Part shown: piece by piece, positions 16,428 to 22,523 of the stretch
Layout of the letters: every line of letters starts with the position of its first letter
Numbering within the stretch: position 1 is the first letter of the stretch
Source: a virus
Taxonomy: Duplodnaviria; Caudoviricetes
Length of the DNA stretch: 64,000 bases
Virus record (IMG/VR): IMGVR_UViG_3300049212_000062
Location: 34-64,033 of that record
Strand: one strand, 5' to 3'
The notes under the pieces: generated by a model
What the model was told of the DNA's origin: nothing
Databases searched by the model: none
The model's input: the letters and a program-made list of their open reading frames with translations, nothing else
Translations under genes and position numbers: made by a program

Positions 16428-16481
16428 ACTGTAAGGTCTACATCGATGCACGTCTAGTCGGAGTTACATCTGTTACATCTC
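16428..16481 (-). promoter_or_regulatory. Promoter TAGACG-N17-TACAGT with an upstream GAGATGTAACAGATGTAAC box
   Basis: The same tandem ATGTAAC box precedes the promoter at 40261. Confidence 0.7.
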
Positions 16482-16499
16482 CCGATGTACAGCGTATGT

Positions 16500-17171
16500 G
16501 CCCCGTCACGAGTGAACACGGGGCCACGTTCGGCGCACCGCCCTTGCGGCCAACCCGCAAGCGCTCCTCTACTCAGACCACCGGCCCGAAGGATTCGAAC
16601 CGACTACCGGGGCAAAACACAAGGTTAGCTGACACCCGACGCGTTCCCAGACGCGCATTGACCGTGGCCTGCATACCGCACCAGCCTGCTCACGGTGGCG
16701 GCTGGCCGGGTTGGCTTACGCGCAGTGCGGCAACCCTGTTGAATTGGTGGGCGTCTGCGGATACCGCTAGACAGGCCACCACGCACCGGATATTTCGCCG
16801 TAGTGCCTTGCTGGTGGCCGACTGCCCGTAGGTGGCGACAAGTAGTGCCAGTGTCTTCTAACCATGTAGACACAAGCGCATTCGCCGTAAGGCTTGGGCA
16901 CCGCCGTACAACCGGCCTGACGCTGCCCGCCTGCGCACAGTACACGGCCGTGATGGACGTGACGCAGGCTCTGTTCACGCTAACGTTCAGTTCTGGGTGA
17001 CTGTTCTCGTCCGGCATTGTTGGCTGGTCATGCCTCCCGCCGGCGGGGCTGTCGCATAGCCTCGTGTCTAGCGTCCTAGCGGACACCACCGACCAAACGC
17101 TCTAGCTCGCCGCAAGGGTGCCAGTGCAAAGGGCCAGTTAGACACTGCGCAATGCGCTTGTGTTTGTTGGT
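16500..17171 (-). ncRNA. Candidate large structured ncRNA (about 670 nt)
   Basis: Own promoter; 13-bp long-range helix 17151-17163/16870-16882; crossing helix 17137-17147/16849-16862; at least six further hairpins; no credible ORF. Confidence 0.65.
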
Positions 17172-17177
17172 GAGTGC

Positions 17178-17206
17178 ACTGTACGGCCGTTAGTTTGTGA
17201 GCACAA
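17178..17206 (-). promoter_or_regulatory. Promoter TTGTGC-N17-TACAGT driving the candidate ncRNA
   Basis: Matches the other phage promoters; predicted start near 17171, about 8 nt before the first helix. Confidence 0.7.
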
Positions 17207-17244
17207 GCGATGAGGTTGACCACACCTTGCCTGTGCGTGCCGCC

Positions 17245-17530
17245 TACGTAATGGGTAATGCTTACGCTTTAATCGTGAATAACAGTAATGCTAATTGGCT
17301 GCCCATAGGTACTACTACACTATTATTATTCGTTTATTTATTTATTCATACAAAAACTCATTATTAGCTTATTCATTATTTATAATGGCATTATGCATAT
17401 ATGCCAGTAATGTAAAATAATAAGGGAAGTACCATGACGGGTTAAAGGCGCTAATTTGAATAATTTCAGTAATGCATAATGGTATTACGAAAGCCTTATT
17501 GTTTTGCTCTGTGCTGGCAAACAAATATAC
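17245..17530. other. AT-rich putative replication origin with GTAATG repeats
   Basis: Only strongly AT-rich stretch in the genome; lies at the strand-divergence point; GTAATG at 17248, 17255, 17285, 17407 and 17469. Confidence 0.6.
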
Positions 17531-17570
17531 GGTACACTGGCACCTAGATTATTCGCGAAGGATGTTACAC

Positions 17571-18150: not shown

Positions 18151-18432
18151 ATGCACCCTGCCACGCCACCGGACAGCGAAACCGCGCAACAGCGGTTTGA
18201 CAGGCTGTACATCGCCAGCAGCGAAATCTGTCGCGAACTGGGTGTCACCCGCACCACGGTACTCGCTGCCCGGCGCAGGGGGTTACTGCCTGAGCCCATT
18301 GCGGTGAATGGCTGCACCCTGTACATCTGGGAGCGCCACGTTGCTCGGCCGTTTATCGACGCGTGGAAGGTCATCCTCAACACCCGTCGCAACCACTACG
18401 CCGCACAGCAGGCCGCAGCAGTACCCGCATGA
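18151..18432 (+). CDS. AlpA/excisionase-like winged-HTH DNA-binding protein
   Basis: SEICRELGVTRTTV...RGLLPEPI...YIW. Confidence 0.75.
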   Translation: MHPATPPDSETAQQRFDRLYIASSEICRELGVTRTTVLAARRRGLLPEPIAVNGCTLYIWERHVARPFIDAWKVILNTRRNHYAAQQAAAVPA

Positions 18433-20846
18433 CCACACAGGCGCCCGCGTGGGATCGCCTGCCTGTGGAACTTCGCCAGCGCCCTCAGTGGCTGTTGGCA
18501 GGGCCCAATGAGCTCGGCGAACTCAAAGTCCCAACCACCGTCACGCTGGACGGTAGGCCAGCCCCTGGCAGCCACAGCGACCCGGGCACATGGCTTGACT
18601 ACGACTACGCGGCGCAGTGCGCCCGGGAGTTCGGCTACGGCTTGGGCTACGTGCTGTCCGCGGACGACCCGTTCACCTGCGTCGACCTGGACATCAAGAA
18701 CCAGCACAACGCACCTAACAACCCAGAGTTGTGGACGCCGGCTGACCGCATTGAAACCATGCGGTACATTGCCGAGGAGCTGGACAGCTATACCGAGCTG
18801 TCGCAAAGCGGCCAGGGCGTGCACGTATGGTGCTACGGGGATATCGGCGAAGGCGTCAAGCGCAAGGGCGTTGAGGTCTACAGCAAGTTGCGCTTCATTG
18901 CCTGCACGGGCAAGACGATTCACGCGCCACCCAAACCCATCGCAGAGCGCCAGGAGGGCCTCGGCGTGTTGGTTGCCAGTATGCGCGCGGCGCAGGAGGC
19001 ACAGCGCGGGCACTTGCAGGACAACGAAGACGAGCTGACCGACGACGAAGTTTGGCGGCGTGGCAGCACGGCGGACAACGCAGAGAAGTTTATCAAACTC
19101 TGCGAGGGCAAGTGGCAAGAGCTGGGCTACCCGAGCCAGTCCGAAGCCGACCTGTCGCTCATGTCCATGTTCACCTTCTACAGCCGCAGCAACGAGCAAT
19201 GCCGCCGGCTGTTCCGGCATACGGCGCTGGGGCAGAGAGAGAAGGCAACGAAGAACGACCGTTACCTTGACTACACGCTGCGGTTGATCCGCGGTAGGCA
19301 GGCGAAGGAAGAAGCCGCTGTGCAGGCCCTGGCAGCCCAGGGGCAGGCCCTGCTGTCAAGGCTGGCCCAAGCCCAGCAGGCCGCCCAGGGCGCGCCACAG
19401 CCCGCCGCAGGCCCCGTGCCGGGCAATGTGCGGGCTGTGGCGCTGGACTATGTGGCGGAGCTACAGGCGCAGACGCCGGCACCGCCCATGCCACCCCGGC
19501 CACCCGAGCCACCGGCTGGCGGTATCGACTGGCCGCCGGGGCTGGTGGGAGACATCGCCCGCTTCGTCTACAACGCCGCGCCGAGGCCCGTCAAGGAGGT
19601 TGCCATCGTTGCGGCGTTGGGCTGGATGGCAGGGGTGTGCGGCAAGGTCTGGGTGATCCCCGGCAGCGGCCTCAATATGTACATCATCCTTGTCGCCCGC
19701 AGCGGTGTCGGCAAGGAGGCTATGCATGGCGGGCTAGGTGCACTGACACACCGATTGCGCGAAGGCGTACCACTGGCCGGGCAGTTCGTTGACTTCAACG
19801 ACTTTGCCTCCGGCCCTGCCCTTGCCAAAGCCTGCGCCAACAACAGCAGCTTCGTCAACGTTGCGGGCGAGTTCGGTCGCAAGCTGCAACGCCTTGCCAA
19901 CAACGTCGGCGACGGGCCCATGCAGAGCCTGCGCACGGTGATGACAAACCTGTACCAGAAGTCAGGACCGGCCAGCATCGCCGGCGGTATCACCTACAGC
20001 GCCAAAGACAGCAGCGTCGCCGCCGTGTCCGGTGTGGCCTACAGCATGATCGGCGAAACCACGCCCGATACGCTGTACGCCAGTCTGACGGAAAGCATGA
20101 TGGAAGACGGTTTCTTGAGCCGCTTCACCATCATCGAATACACCGGTACACGGCCACGCAGCAACCCGTTCCCTAATCTTATCCCGTCACCCGACCTTGT
20201 GCAGCGTTGCCAGAACTTATGCCACACGGCTGCCGCAGCTATCGGTAACCACACCCGACATTACCTGCAACGCACGCAGGGCGCAGCAGCGGTCATGGAC
20301 GCCTTTGACGCTGAGTGCGACGCACAAATCAACGGCAGCGAAGACGAGTCGGTGCGGCAAATGTGGAACCGGGCTCACCTGAAGATGGTGCGAATGGCTG
20401 GGCTGCTGTGCATAGGGGAAGACCCACAGAACCCGACCATTGACGTGCATCACTGCACCTGGGCCCTAGACGTCGTGCGGCGCGACATTGCGCTTATGCA
20501 GCGGCGCATGGAAGCTGGGGACGTGGGCCAGGGCGACAACAGCCGGGACAAGAAGCTTCTGCATATTATCCACGAGTTCCTCACGCAGCCCCTGGGCCCG
20601 AGCTACGGCGTGCCCGCCGTCATGCAGCGTGACGCAGTGGTGCCCCGCAAATACCTGCAGATGCGTGTCAGCCGCGTCGCCAGTTTCAACCAGCACCCGC
20701 TCGGCGCAAAGCGTGCCCTGGACGACGCTATTCAAAGTTGTTGTGACAGCGGCTACATCGTTGAAATGGACAAGAACAAGGCGGGTGAGCAATACACCTT
20801 CATGGGTCGCTGCTATCGCGTAGTGAACCTCCCTAAGTTCAGCTAG
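18429..20846 (+). CDS. Primase-polymerase (AEP, NrS-1-like) fused to a DUF3987-like helicase domain
   Basis: LPVELRQRPQW, CVDLD, YTELSQSGQGVH, EVYS..RF and SQSEADL, then ARSGVGKE and DGFLSRF. Confidence 0.88.
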   Translation: MTTQAPAWDRLPVELRQRPQWLLAGPNELGELKVPTTVTLDGRPAPGSHSDPGTWLDYDYAAQCAREFGYGLGYVLSADDPFTCVDLDIKNQHNAPNNPELWTPADRIETMRYIAEELDSYTELSQSGQGVHVWCYGDIGEGVKRKGVEVYSKLRFIACTGKTIHAPPKPIAERQEGLGVLVASMRAAQEAQRGHLQDNEDELTDDEVWRRGSTADNAEKFIKLCEGKWQELGYPSQSEADLSLMSMFTFYSRSNEQCRRLFRHTALGQREKATKNDRYLDYTLRLIRGRQAKEEAAVQALAAQGQALLSRLAQAQQAAQGAPQPAAGPVPGNVRAVALDYVAELQAQTPAPPMPPRPPEPPAGGIDWPPGLVGDIARFVYNAAPRPVKEVAIVAALGWMAGVCGKVWVIPGSGLNMYIILVARSGVGKEAMHGGLGALTHRLREGVPLAGQFVDFNDFASGPALAKACANNSSFVNVAGEFGRKLQRLANNVGDGPMQSLRTVMTNLYQKSGPASIAGGITYSAKDSSVAAVSGVAYSMIGETTPDTLYASLTESMMEDGFLSRFTIIEYTGTRPRSNPFPNLIPSPDLVQRCQNLCHTAAAAIGNHTRHYLQRTQGAAAVMDAFDAECDAQINGSEDESVRQMWNRAHLKMVRMAGLLCIGEDPQNPTIDVHHCTWALDVVRRDIALMQRRMEAGDVGQGDNSRDKKLLHIIHEFLTQPLGPSYGVPAVMQRDAVVPRKYLQMRVSRVASFNQHPLGAKRALDDAIQSCCDSGYIVEMDKNKAGEQYTFMGRCYRVVNLPKFS

Positions 20847-20872
20847 CTACTCAACGCCCGTACCGTTAAGCT

Positions 20873-21130
20873 AACGCTCATGCACTCGCGCCTCGCCTCC
20901 TACCTCGCCCGCGCTACCCGCTTTGTAGCCGCGTGGTGTGCTGTGGATGTCGCGTGGTGTATCACCCCAGCTTCTGCTCGCCTCGACCGGCCACGCGGCG
21001 CTGAGGGTTCTTGCCGGGCCCCCATGCCGCACAGGCGGCCGCGAGGCGCGAGGGACCGATCCGAAAGGCCGATGGGCATGGTGCCGCCCTAGCACCGGTA
21101 TTGCCGCATATACCGAACTATGCATGAGCG
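20873..21130 (+). ncRNA. Candidate structured ncRNA (about 255 nt)
   Basis: Perfect helices 20875-20884/21121-21130 (10 bp), 20885-20896/21041-21052 (12 bp) and 20928-20936/20991-20999 (9 bp); crossing 7-bp helix; possible promoter TTCAGC-N17-TACCGT at 20838-20866. Confidence 0.6.
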
Positions 21131-21221
21131 ACGCACGAGGGTTAGAGCGGGGTGGTGTACACCATGCAGGGCGCCAGCCCCGCTCACCCGAAACACAACA
21201 TGCCTACAGAGGGGCAACACC

Positions 21222-21944
21222 GTGAACCCGAGCCAACACCACATTTTCATCGACAGCCGCTTTGCGGCGCACCTCGCAGACAACGCCGTGGCCGTGCGCG
21301 ACAAGCGCGCCGACGGCAGCCTGCCCGACTACCCGCTGTTCGTGGACCGCCTGTTCAAGGAACTGTTGCAGGTCAACGCAGCCACCATGATCGAGGCGAT
21401 CAACCGCATGGCGCACGACACCGCGCTGTGCCCCGACGGCAAGCTGAACCCCGCCATGGTCACCGATATGGTCACCATGCTGGCCGGGCAGAACCCCAAC
21501 GGCAGCGCCATGCACGCGGCGATCGGTTGCGCGGGCGAAGGCGGCGAGCTGCTGGACTGCGTGAAGAAGGTGTTCATCTACGGTAAGGACTGGTGCGTGC
21601 CCGATGCGAAGACCGGGCAGACGGCGCTGGAGAACCTGCTGGAGGAGCTCGGCGACTTCAGGTTCTATTACCAGAAGCTTCTGAACATGCTGGGCATCAG
21701 CGACGAGGACGTGCAAGCCGCCAACTTCGTCAAGCTCAGCAAGCGCTATGCCTCCGGCCACTACACCGACGCGCAAGCCCTGGGCCGCGCCGACAAGGCG
21801 CACGAGCCGCAATTCATCGGCGACAAGTCCGGCGGCCCCGCCAGCGTGCCGCGCAACGTGCTGGGCCGTCGCAAGGACGACCACGACACCAGCGGCGAAG
21901 CCAACGACGAGCACGGCCCCGAGGGTCACCACAACCTCGGCTGA
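21222..21944 (+). CDS. MazG-like nucleotide pyrophosphohydrolase
   Basis: GTG start; HAAIGCAGEGGELLDCVKK...LEELGD...N..KL.KRY. Confidence 0.85.
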   Translation: MNPSQHHIFIDSRFAAHLADNAVAVRDKRADGSLPDYPLFVDRLFKELLQVNAATMIEAINRMAHDTALCPDGKLNPAMVTDMVTMLAGQNPNGSAMHAAIGCAGEGGELLDCVKKVFIYGKDWCVPDAKTGQTALENLLEELGDFRFYYQKLLNMLGISDEDVQAANFVKLSKRYASGHYTDAQALGRADKAHEPQFIGDKSGGPASVPRNVLGRRKDDHDTSGEANDEHGPEGHHNLG

Positions 21945-21995
21945 CCACACCAGCACAACACGCCGGGCCGGGGTGCCCGGCCGCAAGGACACGCC

Positions 21996-22523
21996 ATGGC
22001 ACTCACTGCCGAACAGACCGCCAAGCTCGCCGAGTGGCAAGCCGCCCTCACCGAGCTGGCCGCCTGCAAGCCCATCATCGAACGCGAGCGCGAGCTGCGC
22101 AAAGAGGCGTTCGCCCTGCTGTTCCCCGACCCCAAAGAGGGCACCAATACGGTGGAGCTGGCGAACGGCTGGGTGTGCAAAGGCACTTACCCCATCGAGC
22201 GCAAGGTTGACGCCGCACTGGTGCAACAACTGCGCGGCCTCAAGGTCATTGACCTGTCGCCGGAGCTGCTGCAAAAGCTTTCCATTGACCCGGCCGCCTG
22301 CGGCAGCGGTGCAAGCGTGCTGGAAGTGCTGCGGTTCAACGTGGACGAGGTGCTGAACTACGAGCCGAAGCTTGTGGTCAAGCCCTATCGCCAGCTCACA
22401 GCAGAGCAAACCCTGCTGTTCGACCGGTGCCTCGACAGCAAGCCCGGCAGCATCAGCATGGAAATCACCCAACCCAAGCGCGCCCCCAAGGTGGGCGACA
22501 AAGCCGAGGGCTTCACTTCATGA
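21996..22523 (+). CDS. Conserved phage hypothetical protein
   Basis: AAGGA RBS; FPDPKEGTNTVELANG. Confidence 0.75.
   Translation: MALTAEQTAKLAEWQAALTELAACKPIIERERELRKEAFALLFPDPKEGTNTVELANGWVCKGTYPIERKVDAALVQQLRGLKVIDLSPELLQKLSIDPAACGSGASVLEVLRFNVDEVLNYEPKLVVKPYRQLTAEQTLLFDRCLDSKPGSISMEITQPKRAPKVGDKAEGFTS

What the first reader, a model, noticed from the sequence alone, without database searches (positions are those of the whole stretch)
20838..21130. Second candidate structured RNA (~255 nt) directly downstream of the primase-polymerase
Seen: in the 375-nt gap between prim-pol and MazG, CGCTCATGCA (20875-20884) pairs perfectly with TGCATGAGCG (21121-21130), closing the element. The adjacent CTCGCGCCTCGC (20885-20896) pairs with 21041-21052 (12 bp), and GCCGCGTGG (20928-20936) pairs with 20991-20999. 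CCATGCC (21022-21028) with GGCATGG (21075-21081) crosses the 12-bp helix as a pseudoknot, and a short CC-GAAA-GG hairpin lies at 21061-21068. A weak TTCAGC-N17-TACCGT promoter would start transcription at about 20873, just before the closing helix. Inference: a compact multi-helix ncRNA, ribozyme-like element or ssDNA origin structure of no family I recognise.
Basis: partly seen in the sequence, partly recalled or inferred. Interest (0 to 1): 0.75.

Follow-up and report, generated by a model that had tools for sequence, protein, structure and literature searches.

The report
Orphan structured spacer before phage MazG
A soil phage carries a 375-base GC-rich stretch between its primase and MazG genes that does not look protein-coding and is predicted to fold into a tightly closed RNA, but no related phage has it, so its function is unproven.

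Summary
The gap 20847-21221 exists, and the 10-bp and 12-bp helices share one unbroken 22-nt 5' arm. No shuffle reached 22 (0 of 300, maximum 17), and it is the best such pair in the genome (next best 19). Its pseudoknot and GAAA hairpin are at chance level.

The stretch has no codon periodicity and no coding-like codon usage. The 70-aa ORF has no relative among 1.84 billion proteins. Rfam gives nothing.

None of 70 related loci or 15 whole relatives' genomes holds the element, by BLAST or by covariance model. The closest relatives have 30-50 nt there. Most relatives carry a sigma-70-like promoter right after the primase gene. The window keeps a 24-of-32 remnant of it, which overlaps the closing helix's 5' arm.

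Near-identical copies occur in soil, rhizosphere and wastewater runs. Their few variants fit RNA pairing and synonymous sites of the 70-aa ORF about equally; neither fit is significant.

Best reading (about 0.4): a lineage-specific non-coding insert transcribed as a structured leader of the MazG-ThyX mRNA. Function is unproven and interest is modest.

The parts
20838..20872 (+). Degenerate promoter region. By homology with relatives the -10 is TAAGCT (20867-72), with a poor -35 (TAGCTA, 20844-49) overlapping the prim-pol stop.
   Evidence: 32 of 47 unique relatives have TTGnnn-N16-18-TAnnnT within about 100 nt after the prim-pol stop, against 6% of random 125-nt pieces. The window itself does not match that pattern. 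20855-20886 aligns 24 of 32 with the PaMx25 spacer, -10 and start region. The consensus scan finds none.
20872..20884 (+). Conserved 13-mer TAACGCTCATGCA, the promoter-proximal or transcription-start sequence inherited from the ancestor. It overlaps the 5' arm of H1.
   Evidence: An exact copy sits at the same place, 57 nt after the prim-pol stop, in 12 relatives' loci of 72 held. It occurs once in the window.
20875..20884 (+). H1 5' arm (CGCTCATGCA)
20885..20896 (+). H2 5' arm (CTCGCGCCTCGC), contiguous with H1. This is the start of sequence that has no counterpart in relatives.
20900..20946 (+). Hairpin HP1 (stems 20900-03/20943-46, 20906-17/20925-38). It contains the 24-nt patch 20910-20933 that is about 50% different in run X9.
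   Evidence: (z = -2.38). The test of whether the variant retains folding energy was not significant.
20949..20999 (+). Hairpin HP2 (10-bp stem 20949-58/20990-99).
   Evidence: probability 0.97; z = -1.51.
21002..21039 (+). Two short hairpins (21002-21024 and 21026-21039) that complete a four-hairpin junction inside H2.
   Evidence: minimum-energy fold only.
21041..21052 (+). H2 3' arm (GCGAGGCGCGAG)
21053..21120 (+). 68-nt segment between the two 3' arms. It has no structure above chance.
   Evidence: z = +0.14, with 103 of 200 shuffles folding as well.
21121..21130 (+). H1 3' arm (TGCATGAGCG)
21139..21189 (+). Strong 3' hairpin of about 20 bp, -32.7 kcal/mol, containing the palindrome GGTGTACACC. 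No U-tract follows it.
   Evidence: z = -3.64 on + (1 of 200 shuffles) and -2.82 on -. Also, and no terminator.
21210..21224 (+). MazG ribosome-binding site (GAGGGG, 21210-15) and GTG start (21222).
   Evidence: The coding signal starts at about 21200. Relatives' MazG aligns from residue 4. The variant at 21230 is synonymous.
20880..21092 (+). 70-aa ORF, a candidate only and not supported as a gene.
   Evidence: Codon score -0.37, like spurious ORFs. No relatives found. The variants inside it are mostly synonymous, but the counts are too small.

Best explanation
The element is a lineage-specific, non-coding insert of about 310-340 nt (roughly 20885-21195). It sits in the variable slot between the conserved post-primase promoter and the MazG start of a Queuovirinae-like soil phage.

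It is transcribed on the + strand as part of the rightward replication and nucleotide-metabolism operon (prim-pol, MazG, DUF7173, ThyX, ligase and onward). Transcription would come from read-through or from the weak promoter remnant at 20838-20872.

In the RNA it folds into two domains. Domain I is a four-hairpin junction closed by 22 bp (H1 + H2). Domain II is a 20-bp hairpin that ends about 30 nt before the MazG start.

The most likely action is in cis on the mRNA. Long double-stranded stems between cistrons are the kind of structure that RNase III cuts and that protects mRNA ends. The element would therefore set the processing, stability or translation of the MazG-ThyX message.

Shown here: the element's presence, its non-coding character, the predicted fold with its statistics, its absence from relatives, and the promoter homology. 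Inferred: that it is transcribed, that it folds this way in the cell, and any effect on the mRNA.
For: - Helices are above chance and stable in the ensemble. Domain I has z = -3.11 and the 3' hairpin z = -3.64.
- The + strand folds better relative to shuffles than the - strand (-3.11 against -1.96).
- No coding signal. GC at the three codon positions is about equal, 0.62-0.75, across windows spanning 20880-21119. Flanking genes show about 0.7/0.4/0.9. Codon log-odds are -0.37 to -0.84 for every ORF in the gap. Training genes score at least 0.30 and small reference genes 0.06-0.78.
- The 70-aa ORF has 0 relatives. The 84-aa antisense ORF has none in phages.
- The element has the same orientation as the operon and sits directly after a promoter that relatives conserve.
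- It is kept in a compact 64-kb genome. Near-identical copies are seen in runs of four different studies from soil, rhizosphere and wastewater.
- Of the 5 single-base variants in the gap, 3 lie in predicted stems and all 3 keep pairing: U-G to C-G at 20948 and 21156, and C-G to U-G at 21180. One lies in a loop. One breaks a weak 3-bp stem.
Against: - No homologue exists anywhere outside near-identical copies, so there is no covariation test. Searches were phages, plasmids, 70 related loci, the covariance model on 72 sources and 15 whole records, and exact probes.
- The low variation of the gap in X6 and X9 is not evidence of constraint. The adjacent coding ends (20778-20846 and 21222-21320) are just as invariant, which suggests a recently shared segment.
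- The 24-nt divergent patch in X9 keeps a hairpin, but random changes do so as often (22-77% of simulations).
- Three pair-preserving transitions of three is about p = 0.1-0.2 by my estimate.
- If transcription starts at about 20879/80, half of H1 is absent from that RNA, and the pair probability of the remaining H1 pairs falls to 0.00.
- There is no terminator and no clear sequestration of the ribosome-binding site.
- The boundaries used for the z-scores were chosen at the helix ends.
- No RNA data were available. The one 'RNA?' run that was laid is probably DNA.
Confidence: 0.4

Rival explanations
1. The element is functionless leftover DNA at a mosaic junction. A fragment of foreign GC-rich sequence, or a decayed accessory gene, was trapped in a slot where relatives carry small accessory genes. 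The inverted repeats are by-products of how it arose, for example an inverted duplication of the adjacent promoter-proximal sequence that a 68-nt insertion later split.
For: - It is an orphan, absent from all relatives. The closest relatives (73% and 69% prim-pol identity) have gaps of 30 and 50 nt.
- The slot is variable. 7 of 60 loci have gaps of 195-315 nt, and I inspected 6 of those 7. Five hold a plausible small ORF with an ATG, and L035 is unclear.
- H1's 5' arm is ancestral promoter sequence, and its 3' arm is an exact inverted copy of it.
- The codon score resembles spurious frames.
- The low-variation zone extends into the coding flanks, as expected for a recently shared segment.
Against: - Phage genomes are compact, and a useless 311 nt would be expected to be lost.
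- The 22-nt split helix and the separate 20-bp hairpin are both individually above chance.
- No remnant of any relative's protein is detectable in the gap, and there is no similarity to the prim-pol 3' end.
- The element occurs in several habitats.
Confidence: 0.3
2. The gap holds a small protein gene. The 70-aa Arg/Ala/Pro-rich ORF at 20880-21092 would be translated from a leaderless mRNA that starts at its ATG, 7-8 nt after the -10 TAAGCT. A 33-aa ORF at 21124-21225, whose TGA overlaps the MazG GTG, may also be involved.
For: - Outside the X9 patch, the three variants inside the ORF are all third-position and synonymous: 20948 (GAT to GAC), 21053 (AGG to AGA) and 21056 (GAC to GAT). Three changes inside the patch (20915, 20918, 20921) are as well (codons read).
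- Frame +0 has the most synonymous codon changes: 5 of 11 in X9 and 2 of 3 in X6. No variant creates a stop in it.
- 21156 and 21180 are synonymous third positions of the 33-aa ORF (my reading).
- Relatives carry small ORFs in this slot.
Against: - The codon score of -0.37 per codon is typical of spurious ORFs (mean -0.51). GC at positions 1/2/3 is 0.69/0.70/0.74, against about 0.7/0.4/0.9 in real genes.
- No hit in 1,835,955,588 representative proteins, none in the word-indexed search, and none by tblastn in phages.
- No Shine-Dalgarno sequence lies before the ATG (read).
- The ATG is not conserved in all relatives that keep the motif. L009 has ACG and L015 has TGT.
- The X9 patch replaces 5 codons radically.
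- An antisense frame scores nearly as well (4 of 11 and 2 of 3).
- By my estimate the synonymous pattern has p of about 0.03-0.1 after allowing for four candidate ORFs.
Confidence: 0.12
3. The element acts at the DNA level. It would be a binding array or origin-like site for the neighbouring prim-pol/helicase or for a regulator, using the TGGTGT repeats and the GGTGTACACC palindrome.
For: - TGGTGT/ACACCA occurs 4 times in the gap against 0.25 expected (p = 1.4e-4 before correction for 306 hexamers). TGGTGTA occurs 3 times against 0.05 expected.
- Two GCGTGGTGT copies lie 21 nt apart.
- The site is directly after the primase-helicase gene.
- The single-stranded DNA fold has z = -2.74.
Against: - GC is 0.66-0.67, above the genome's 0.64, and there is no AT-rich unwinding stretch.
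- Relatives with homologous prim-pols lack it.
- The genome has a far better origin or control candidate in the low-GC non-coding region 17030-17558. That region corresponds to the 1186-bp repeat-bearing non-coding segment described for phage MMDA13 (PMC7472734, passages read).
- The motifs form no genome-wide family.
Confidence: 0.1

Closest known systems
Intercistronic RNase III processing hairpins of phage early mRNAs (T7 R-sites; recalled from textbook knowledge, not from a call)
   Same: Long double-stranded stems of about 20-22 bp lie between cistrons of a phage polycistronic operon, on the sense strand, with no terminator tail.
   Different: This element is about five times larger and has a multi-hairpin junction. 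The 22 bp are interrupted on the 3' strand by 68 nt. No cleavage data exist. It is not conserved in relatives.
Structured cis-regulatory leaders and riboswitches (Rfam)
   Same: A long structured 5' leader closed by a terminal helix, lying upstream of nucleotide-metabolism genes.
   Different: No Rfam family matches, even at E up to 10. No expression platform is recognisable. There is no conservation across lineages, which is what defines known riboswitch classes.
Post-primase promoter of Nipunavirus-like phages (PaMx25 group)
   Same: The window's 20855-20886 is homologous (24 of 32, with a 13-mer identical) to the -10 and start region that follows the primase gene in PaMx25-like phages.
   Different: In those phages the next gene starts about 25-30 nt later. 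Here about 340 nt intervene, and the -35 is lost under the prim-pol stop codon.
Small accessory ('moron'-like) genes in the same slot of relatives
   Same: They occupy the same position, between the promoter and the next replication-module gene.
   Different: Those are ORFs with ATG starts, and a few have recognisable relatives among the loci. The window's insert has no coding signature.

Membership tests
Any Rfam family | Covariance-model score at or above the family's gathering threshold | tested here: not met
   One search found 3 matches at E up to 10 in 20000-22000, all far below threshold. The only one inside the element is malK-III at 15.6 bits against 50. One search found 0 matches at gathering scores in the whole window. 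One search found no tRNA or tmRNA.
Riboswitch / cis-regulatory leader | Ligand-binding fold conserved, with covariation, across distinct lineages | tested here: not met
   No homologue in 70 related loci or 15 whole relatives' records, by BLAST or by covariance model.
Riboswitch / cis-regulatory leader | Expression platform (terminator, or sequestration of the RBS or start codon) | tested here: inconclusive
   No terminator. Only weak 4-5-bp pairings touch the ribosome-binding site and the GTG in the minimum-energy fold.
RNase III intercistronic processing site | Roughly 20 bp or more of double-stranded RNA within a transcribed spacer | tested here: met
   By prediction only: H1 + H2 give 22 bp and the 3' hairpin about 20 bp, with pair probabilities of 0.88-1.0.
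RNase III intercistronic processing site | Cleavage by RNase III | not testable with these tools
   This needs an in vitro cleavage assay or mapping of RNA ends.
Small protein-coding gene | Codon usage and GC3 periodicity like the genome's genes | tested here: not met
Small protein-coding gene | Protein relatives | tested here: not met
   The exact look-up is uninformative, because even prim-pol and MazG were not found.
Small protein-coding gene | Excess of synonymous changes among natural variants | tested here: inconclusive
   Frame +0 has 5 of 11 changed codons synonymous in X9 and 2 of 3 in X6. The counts are too small, and an antisense frame scores similarly.
Iteron-type origin (P4 ori/crr or plasmid-like; features recalled) | Regularly spaced direct repeats plus an AT-rich unwinding region, kept wherever the initiator is kept | tested here: not met
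   Repeats are weakly enriched. The region is GC-rich and is absent from relatives that carry the prim-pol.
MITE / IS-derived element | Terminal inverted repeats with a target-site duplication, and several copies | tested here: not met
   One copy in the window. No copy elsewhere. No flanking duplication is visible. The single 22-mer hit, in a Labedella coding gene, does not extend beyond about 40 nt.

The most novel reading that the evidence does not exclude
The insert is a functional structured RNA of a class not yet described. It would be a roughly 320-nt two-domain RNA that a soil Queuovirinae-like phage acquired and keeps because it does something beyond spacing two genes. Possible roles are a ligand- or protein-sensing leader for the nucleotide-metabolism genes, or a processed RNA that acts in trans, for example as a decoy against a host defence.
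Probability: 0.2. Interest if true: 0.6.

Novelty: new member of a known kind. Interest (0 to 1): 0.3.

Why it matters
If the fold is functional, it would be a new phage RNA element placed in front of nucleotide-pool genes (MazG, ThyX) in a group of phages known for DNA modification. It would also show how a new regulatory RNA can be inserted behind an old promoter.

If it is not functional, it is a clean example of leftover DNA at a mosaic junction. It is also a warning that strong inverted repeats in GC-rich spacers do not by themselves make an RNA gene.

Either way the element is confined to one species-level lineage, so its general importance is limited until expression data exist.

Tried and rejected
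- **Known RNA family:** none.
- **Pseudogene of the prim-pol 3' end:** this was suggested by a 72%/32-nt direct repeat (D1) and an 'RVV..P.F' peptide echo. The local DNA alignment score of 19 equals the shuffle mean of 18.8, so I rejected it.
- **Remnant of any ORF of relatives or of the window:** blastx gave only compositional noise, with the best E = 0.003 obtained without composition correction.
- **MazG N-terminal extension from ATG 21120:** the codon score is -0.84, and both variants there are non-synonymous in that frame (my reading). Rejected.
- **Amber read-through or TAG recoding:** frame 0 is open from prim-pol to MazG apart from two TAG codons. About 2.7 stops are expected by chance at this GC content (my estimate), and relatives' prim-pols end at the same residue. 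Rejected.
- **Compensatory changes in hairpin HP1:** X9 changes 20910/20933 from C-G to A-U and 20911/20932 from G-C to A-U. The retention-of-folding test was not significant, with 22%, 37% and 77% of three null sets folding as well. I do not count this as evidence.
- **Low variation as purifying selection:** rejected because the invariant zone includes the coding flanks.
- **Host or mobile origin:** a 44-mer gave no hit in genome contigs. The 22-mer gave one hit, in a Labedella endophytica coding gene, with 87.5% identity over 40 nt and nothing beyond. I judged this chance.
- **Genome-wide motif family for GCGTGGTGT or TGGTGTACACCA:** none.
- **Exact look-up of 9 candidate proteins:** none was in the collection, including prim-pol and MazG, so the result carries no information.
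- **Literature:** two full-text searches listed no paper on non-coding RNAs or transcript maps of Queuovirinae or Nipunavirus phages. I saw only the listings, plus passages of PMC7472734.
- **RNA-labelled runs:** the one that was laid (X10) is probably DNA and consists of contigs, so it says nothing about expression.
Full report
**Context**

The window is a complete 64,033-bp virus record with direct terminal repeats and GC 0.64. Its prim-pol/helicase (18363-20846; DUF3987 plus an NrS-1-type helix bundle) is at most 53% identical to those of Pseudomonas phages JG054, PaMx25 and NP1. PaMx25 is classified as Queuovirinae, genus Nipunavirus.

Downstream genes follow the PaMx25 order: MazG (21222-21944), DUF7173, ThyX, ATP-dependent ligase, AAA_24 and DUF669. 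The finding therefore lies inside a rightward replication and nucleotide-metabolism operon.

**Observation**

The gap from the prim-pol stop to the MazG GTG is 20847-21221, 375 nt. GTG 21222 is supported as the start in three ways:
- Coding periodicity begins at about 21200.
- Relatives' MazG aligns from residue 4.
- A GAGGGG ribosome-binding site lies at 21210-15.

Two of them are remarkable together. The 10-bp H1 (20875-84/21121-30) and the 12-bp H2 (20885-96/21041-52) share an unbroken 22-nt 5' arm.
- In 300 dinucleotide shuffles of the gap, 2 had any perfect repeat of 12 or more. None had a split helix of 18 or more; the maximum was 17.
- Across 510 overlapping 375-nt windows of the genome this is the top value, and the next best are two windows at 19. 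By extrapolation I put the genome-wide chance at a few percent.
- Pair probabilities are 0.88-1.0 in four of five contexts, including an 800-nt one. In the context starting at 20880, H2 keeps 1.0 but the remaining H1 pairs drop to 0.00.

The whole gap folds with z = -1.46 on + and -0.36 on -. With its own boundaries, domain I (20873-21132) gives:
- z = -3.11 as + strand RNA (2 of 200 shuffles fold as well)
- z = -1.96 as - strand RNA
- z = -2.74 as + strand DNA

These boundaries were chosen at the helix ends, which flatters the scores.

It has about 20 bp and -32.7 kcal/mol, with z = -3.64 on + and -2.82 on -.

The other proposed elements fail:
- The 9-bp helix has probability 0.01, because its 3' arm pairs with the repeat copy at 20949-58 (probability 0.97).
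- The 7-bp pseudoknot is shorter than what shuffles give on average (8.3).
- The 68-nt segment with the GAAA hairpin has z = +0.14.

**Coding or not**

Across windows spanning 20880-21119 the three codon positions have nearly equal GC (0.62-0.75). The flanking genes show about 0.7/0.4/0.9.

I trained a codon log-odds score on 33 genes of the window:

| Sequence | Score per codon |
|---|---|
| 70-aa ORF (20880-21092) | -0.37 |
| Other ORFs in the gap | -0.40 to -0.84 |
| 139 spurious ORFs (mean) | -0.51 |
| Training genes (minimum) | 0.30 |
| Eight small reference genes | 0.06 to 0.78 |

The 70-aa ORF has no hit in the word-indexed search of 5.8 billion clusters. It has none at E up to 0.001 in 1,835,955,588 representative proteins, and none by tblastn in phage records. 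The 84-aa antisense ORF also has none in phage records.

**Relatives**

I fetched 35 loci from IMG/VR and 35 from metagenome contigs, using the prim-pol C-terminal half as the query. Several are the same contig in both collections.
- BLASTN with 7-nt words finds no counterpart of the gap in them, in phage records or in plasmids.
- In 53 of the 60 loci where the stop and a following ORF of 80 aa or more could be read, the gap is 95 nt or less. The closest relatives, L038 (73% identity) and L002 (69%), have 30 and 50 nt.
- The 7 loci with gaps of 195-315 nt were checked in 6 cases. Five hold a plausible small ORF, and L035 is unclear.
- A covariance model of domain I (260 positions, 83 pairs) finds only itself, at 323 bits, in 72 sources totalling 491,197 bases. 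The next best is 10 bits at E = 0.4.
- The same model finds nothing at E up to 0.1 in 15 whole records of relatives. The best is 8.4 bits at E = 0.15 in PaMx25, and five of the 20 handles asked for were not held.

The element is an orphan insert in a variable slot.

**The promoter**

Of 47 unique relatives, 32 have TTGnnn-N16-18-TAnnnT within about 100 nt after the prim-pol stop. The rate in random 125-nt pieces of the same loci is 6%.

The window lacks that pattern. Even so, 20855-20886 aligns 24 of 32 with the PaMx25 spacer, -10 and start region. The 13-mer TAACGCTCATGCA is identical at the orthologous place in 12 loci and occurs once in the window.

By this homology:
- The -10 is TAAGCT (20867-72). 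L022 has the same hexamer with a good -35.
- The -35 has decayed under the stop codon.
- Transcription would start near 20879/80.

Two consequences follow:
- H1's 5' arm is ancestral promoter-proximal sequence, and the insert carries its exact inverted copy.
- RNA made from this promoter would lack half of H1, whereas read-through RNA would have all of it.

**Natural variants**

Twenty-four runs from 15 studies hold at least part of the stretch. I laid four of them.
- X5 is identical to the window.
- X6 (soil), X9 (rhizosphere) and X10 (wastewater; labelled RNA but probably DNA) carry variants.

In the gap the listed differences are:
- 20948 T>C (X6, X9 and X10)
- 21053 G>A and 21156 T>C (X9)
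- 21056 C>T and 21180 C>T (X6)
- a 24-nt patch at 20910-20933 in X9, with 10 substitutions, one insertion and one deletion

At most one further unlisted difference exists per contig piece.

Per-piece divergence:

| Run | Pieces covering the gap | Coding flanks |
|---|---|---|
| X6 | 0.9% and 2.2% | 2.0-6.8% |
| X9 | about 1.1% outside the patch | 2.4-4.7% |

Of the 32 listed flank variants, 26 are synonymous.

The invariant zone also covers the last 69 nt of prim-pol and the first roughly 100 nt of MazG. It therefore looks like a recently shared segment, not site-by-site constraint.

The variants can be read two ways:
- **As RNA.** Three lie in stems and keep pairing. In the X9 patch two stem pairs change on both sides and stay complementary. 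However, simulated random patches fold as well in 22-77% of trials.
- **As coding.** Six changes are synonymous third positions of the 70-aa ORF, but five codons in the patch are replaced. Frame +0 has 5 of 11 changed codons synonymous in X9 and 2 of 3 in X6. An antisense frame has 4 of 11 and 2 of 3.

Neither reading reaches significance.

**Verdict**

I rank the explanations as follows:
- Transcribed structured leader or intercistronic RNA acting in cis: about 0.4
- Leftover DNA at a mosaic junction: about 0.3
- Small protein gene: about 0.12
- DNA-level site: about 0.1

No paper on RNA elements or transcript maps of this phage group turned up in two full-text searches, of which I saw the listings only. 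Passages of PMC7472734 describe the large low-GC non-coding control region of a related phage. That corresponds to 16432-17558 of this window, not to this element.

Noticed in passing
window 16432-17558: A non-coding zone of about 1.1 kb lies between the leftward and rightward gene arms. It comprises 16432-16892 (GC 0.61) and 17030-17558 (GC 0.44, very AT-rich around 17280-17470). It matches the 1186-bp low-GC non-coding segment with repeats and divergent promoters described for phage MMDA13 (PMC7472734).
   Followed up: partly
loci L004-L070, first ~100 nt after the prim-pol stop: A sigma-70-like promoter (TTGCnn-N16-18-TAnAnT, often followed by TAAC) is conserved right after the primase gene in 32 of 47 unique relatives.
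   Followed up: yes
L033 4297-4553; L047 4294-4548; L057 from ~1274: A conserved small protein (MNFRLVATV... / MHFRLIATE... / MNFRLIATE..., about 60-80 aa) occupies the slot after the promoter in three relatives. L004, L041 and L042 carry a different small basic protein there.
   Followed up: no
window 21124-21225: A 33-aa ORF has a TGA that overlaps the MazG GTG start (GTGA). Both natural variants in it (21156, 21180) are synonymous third positions by my reading. Its codon score is poor (-0.60).
   Followed up: partly
window 20601-20777 in run X10: The wastewater run's prim-pol pieces are only about 81% identical (17 of 89 and 7 of 37 letters differ). Its piece over 20933-21125 differs at 1 of 193 letters. 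Either two related phages are present, or the element is shared by more divergent genomes. The short contigs cannot be linked.
   Followed up: no
L073 6285-6324 (Labedella endophytica): An exact 22-mer match to the H1 + H2 5' arm lies at the 3' end of an actinobacterial coding gene, with 87.5% identity over 40 nt and nothing beyond. I judged it chance.
   Followed up: yes
window 20885-20925: The first 40 nt of the insert are strongly C-rich and G-poor by my count. This composition resembles Rho-loading sites. It was not tested.
   Followed up: no
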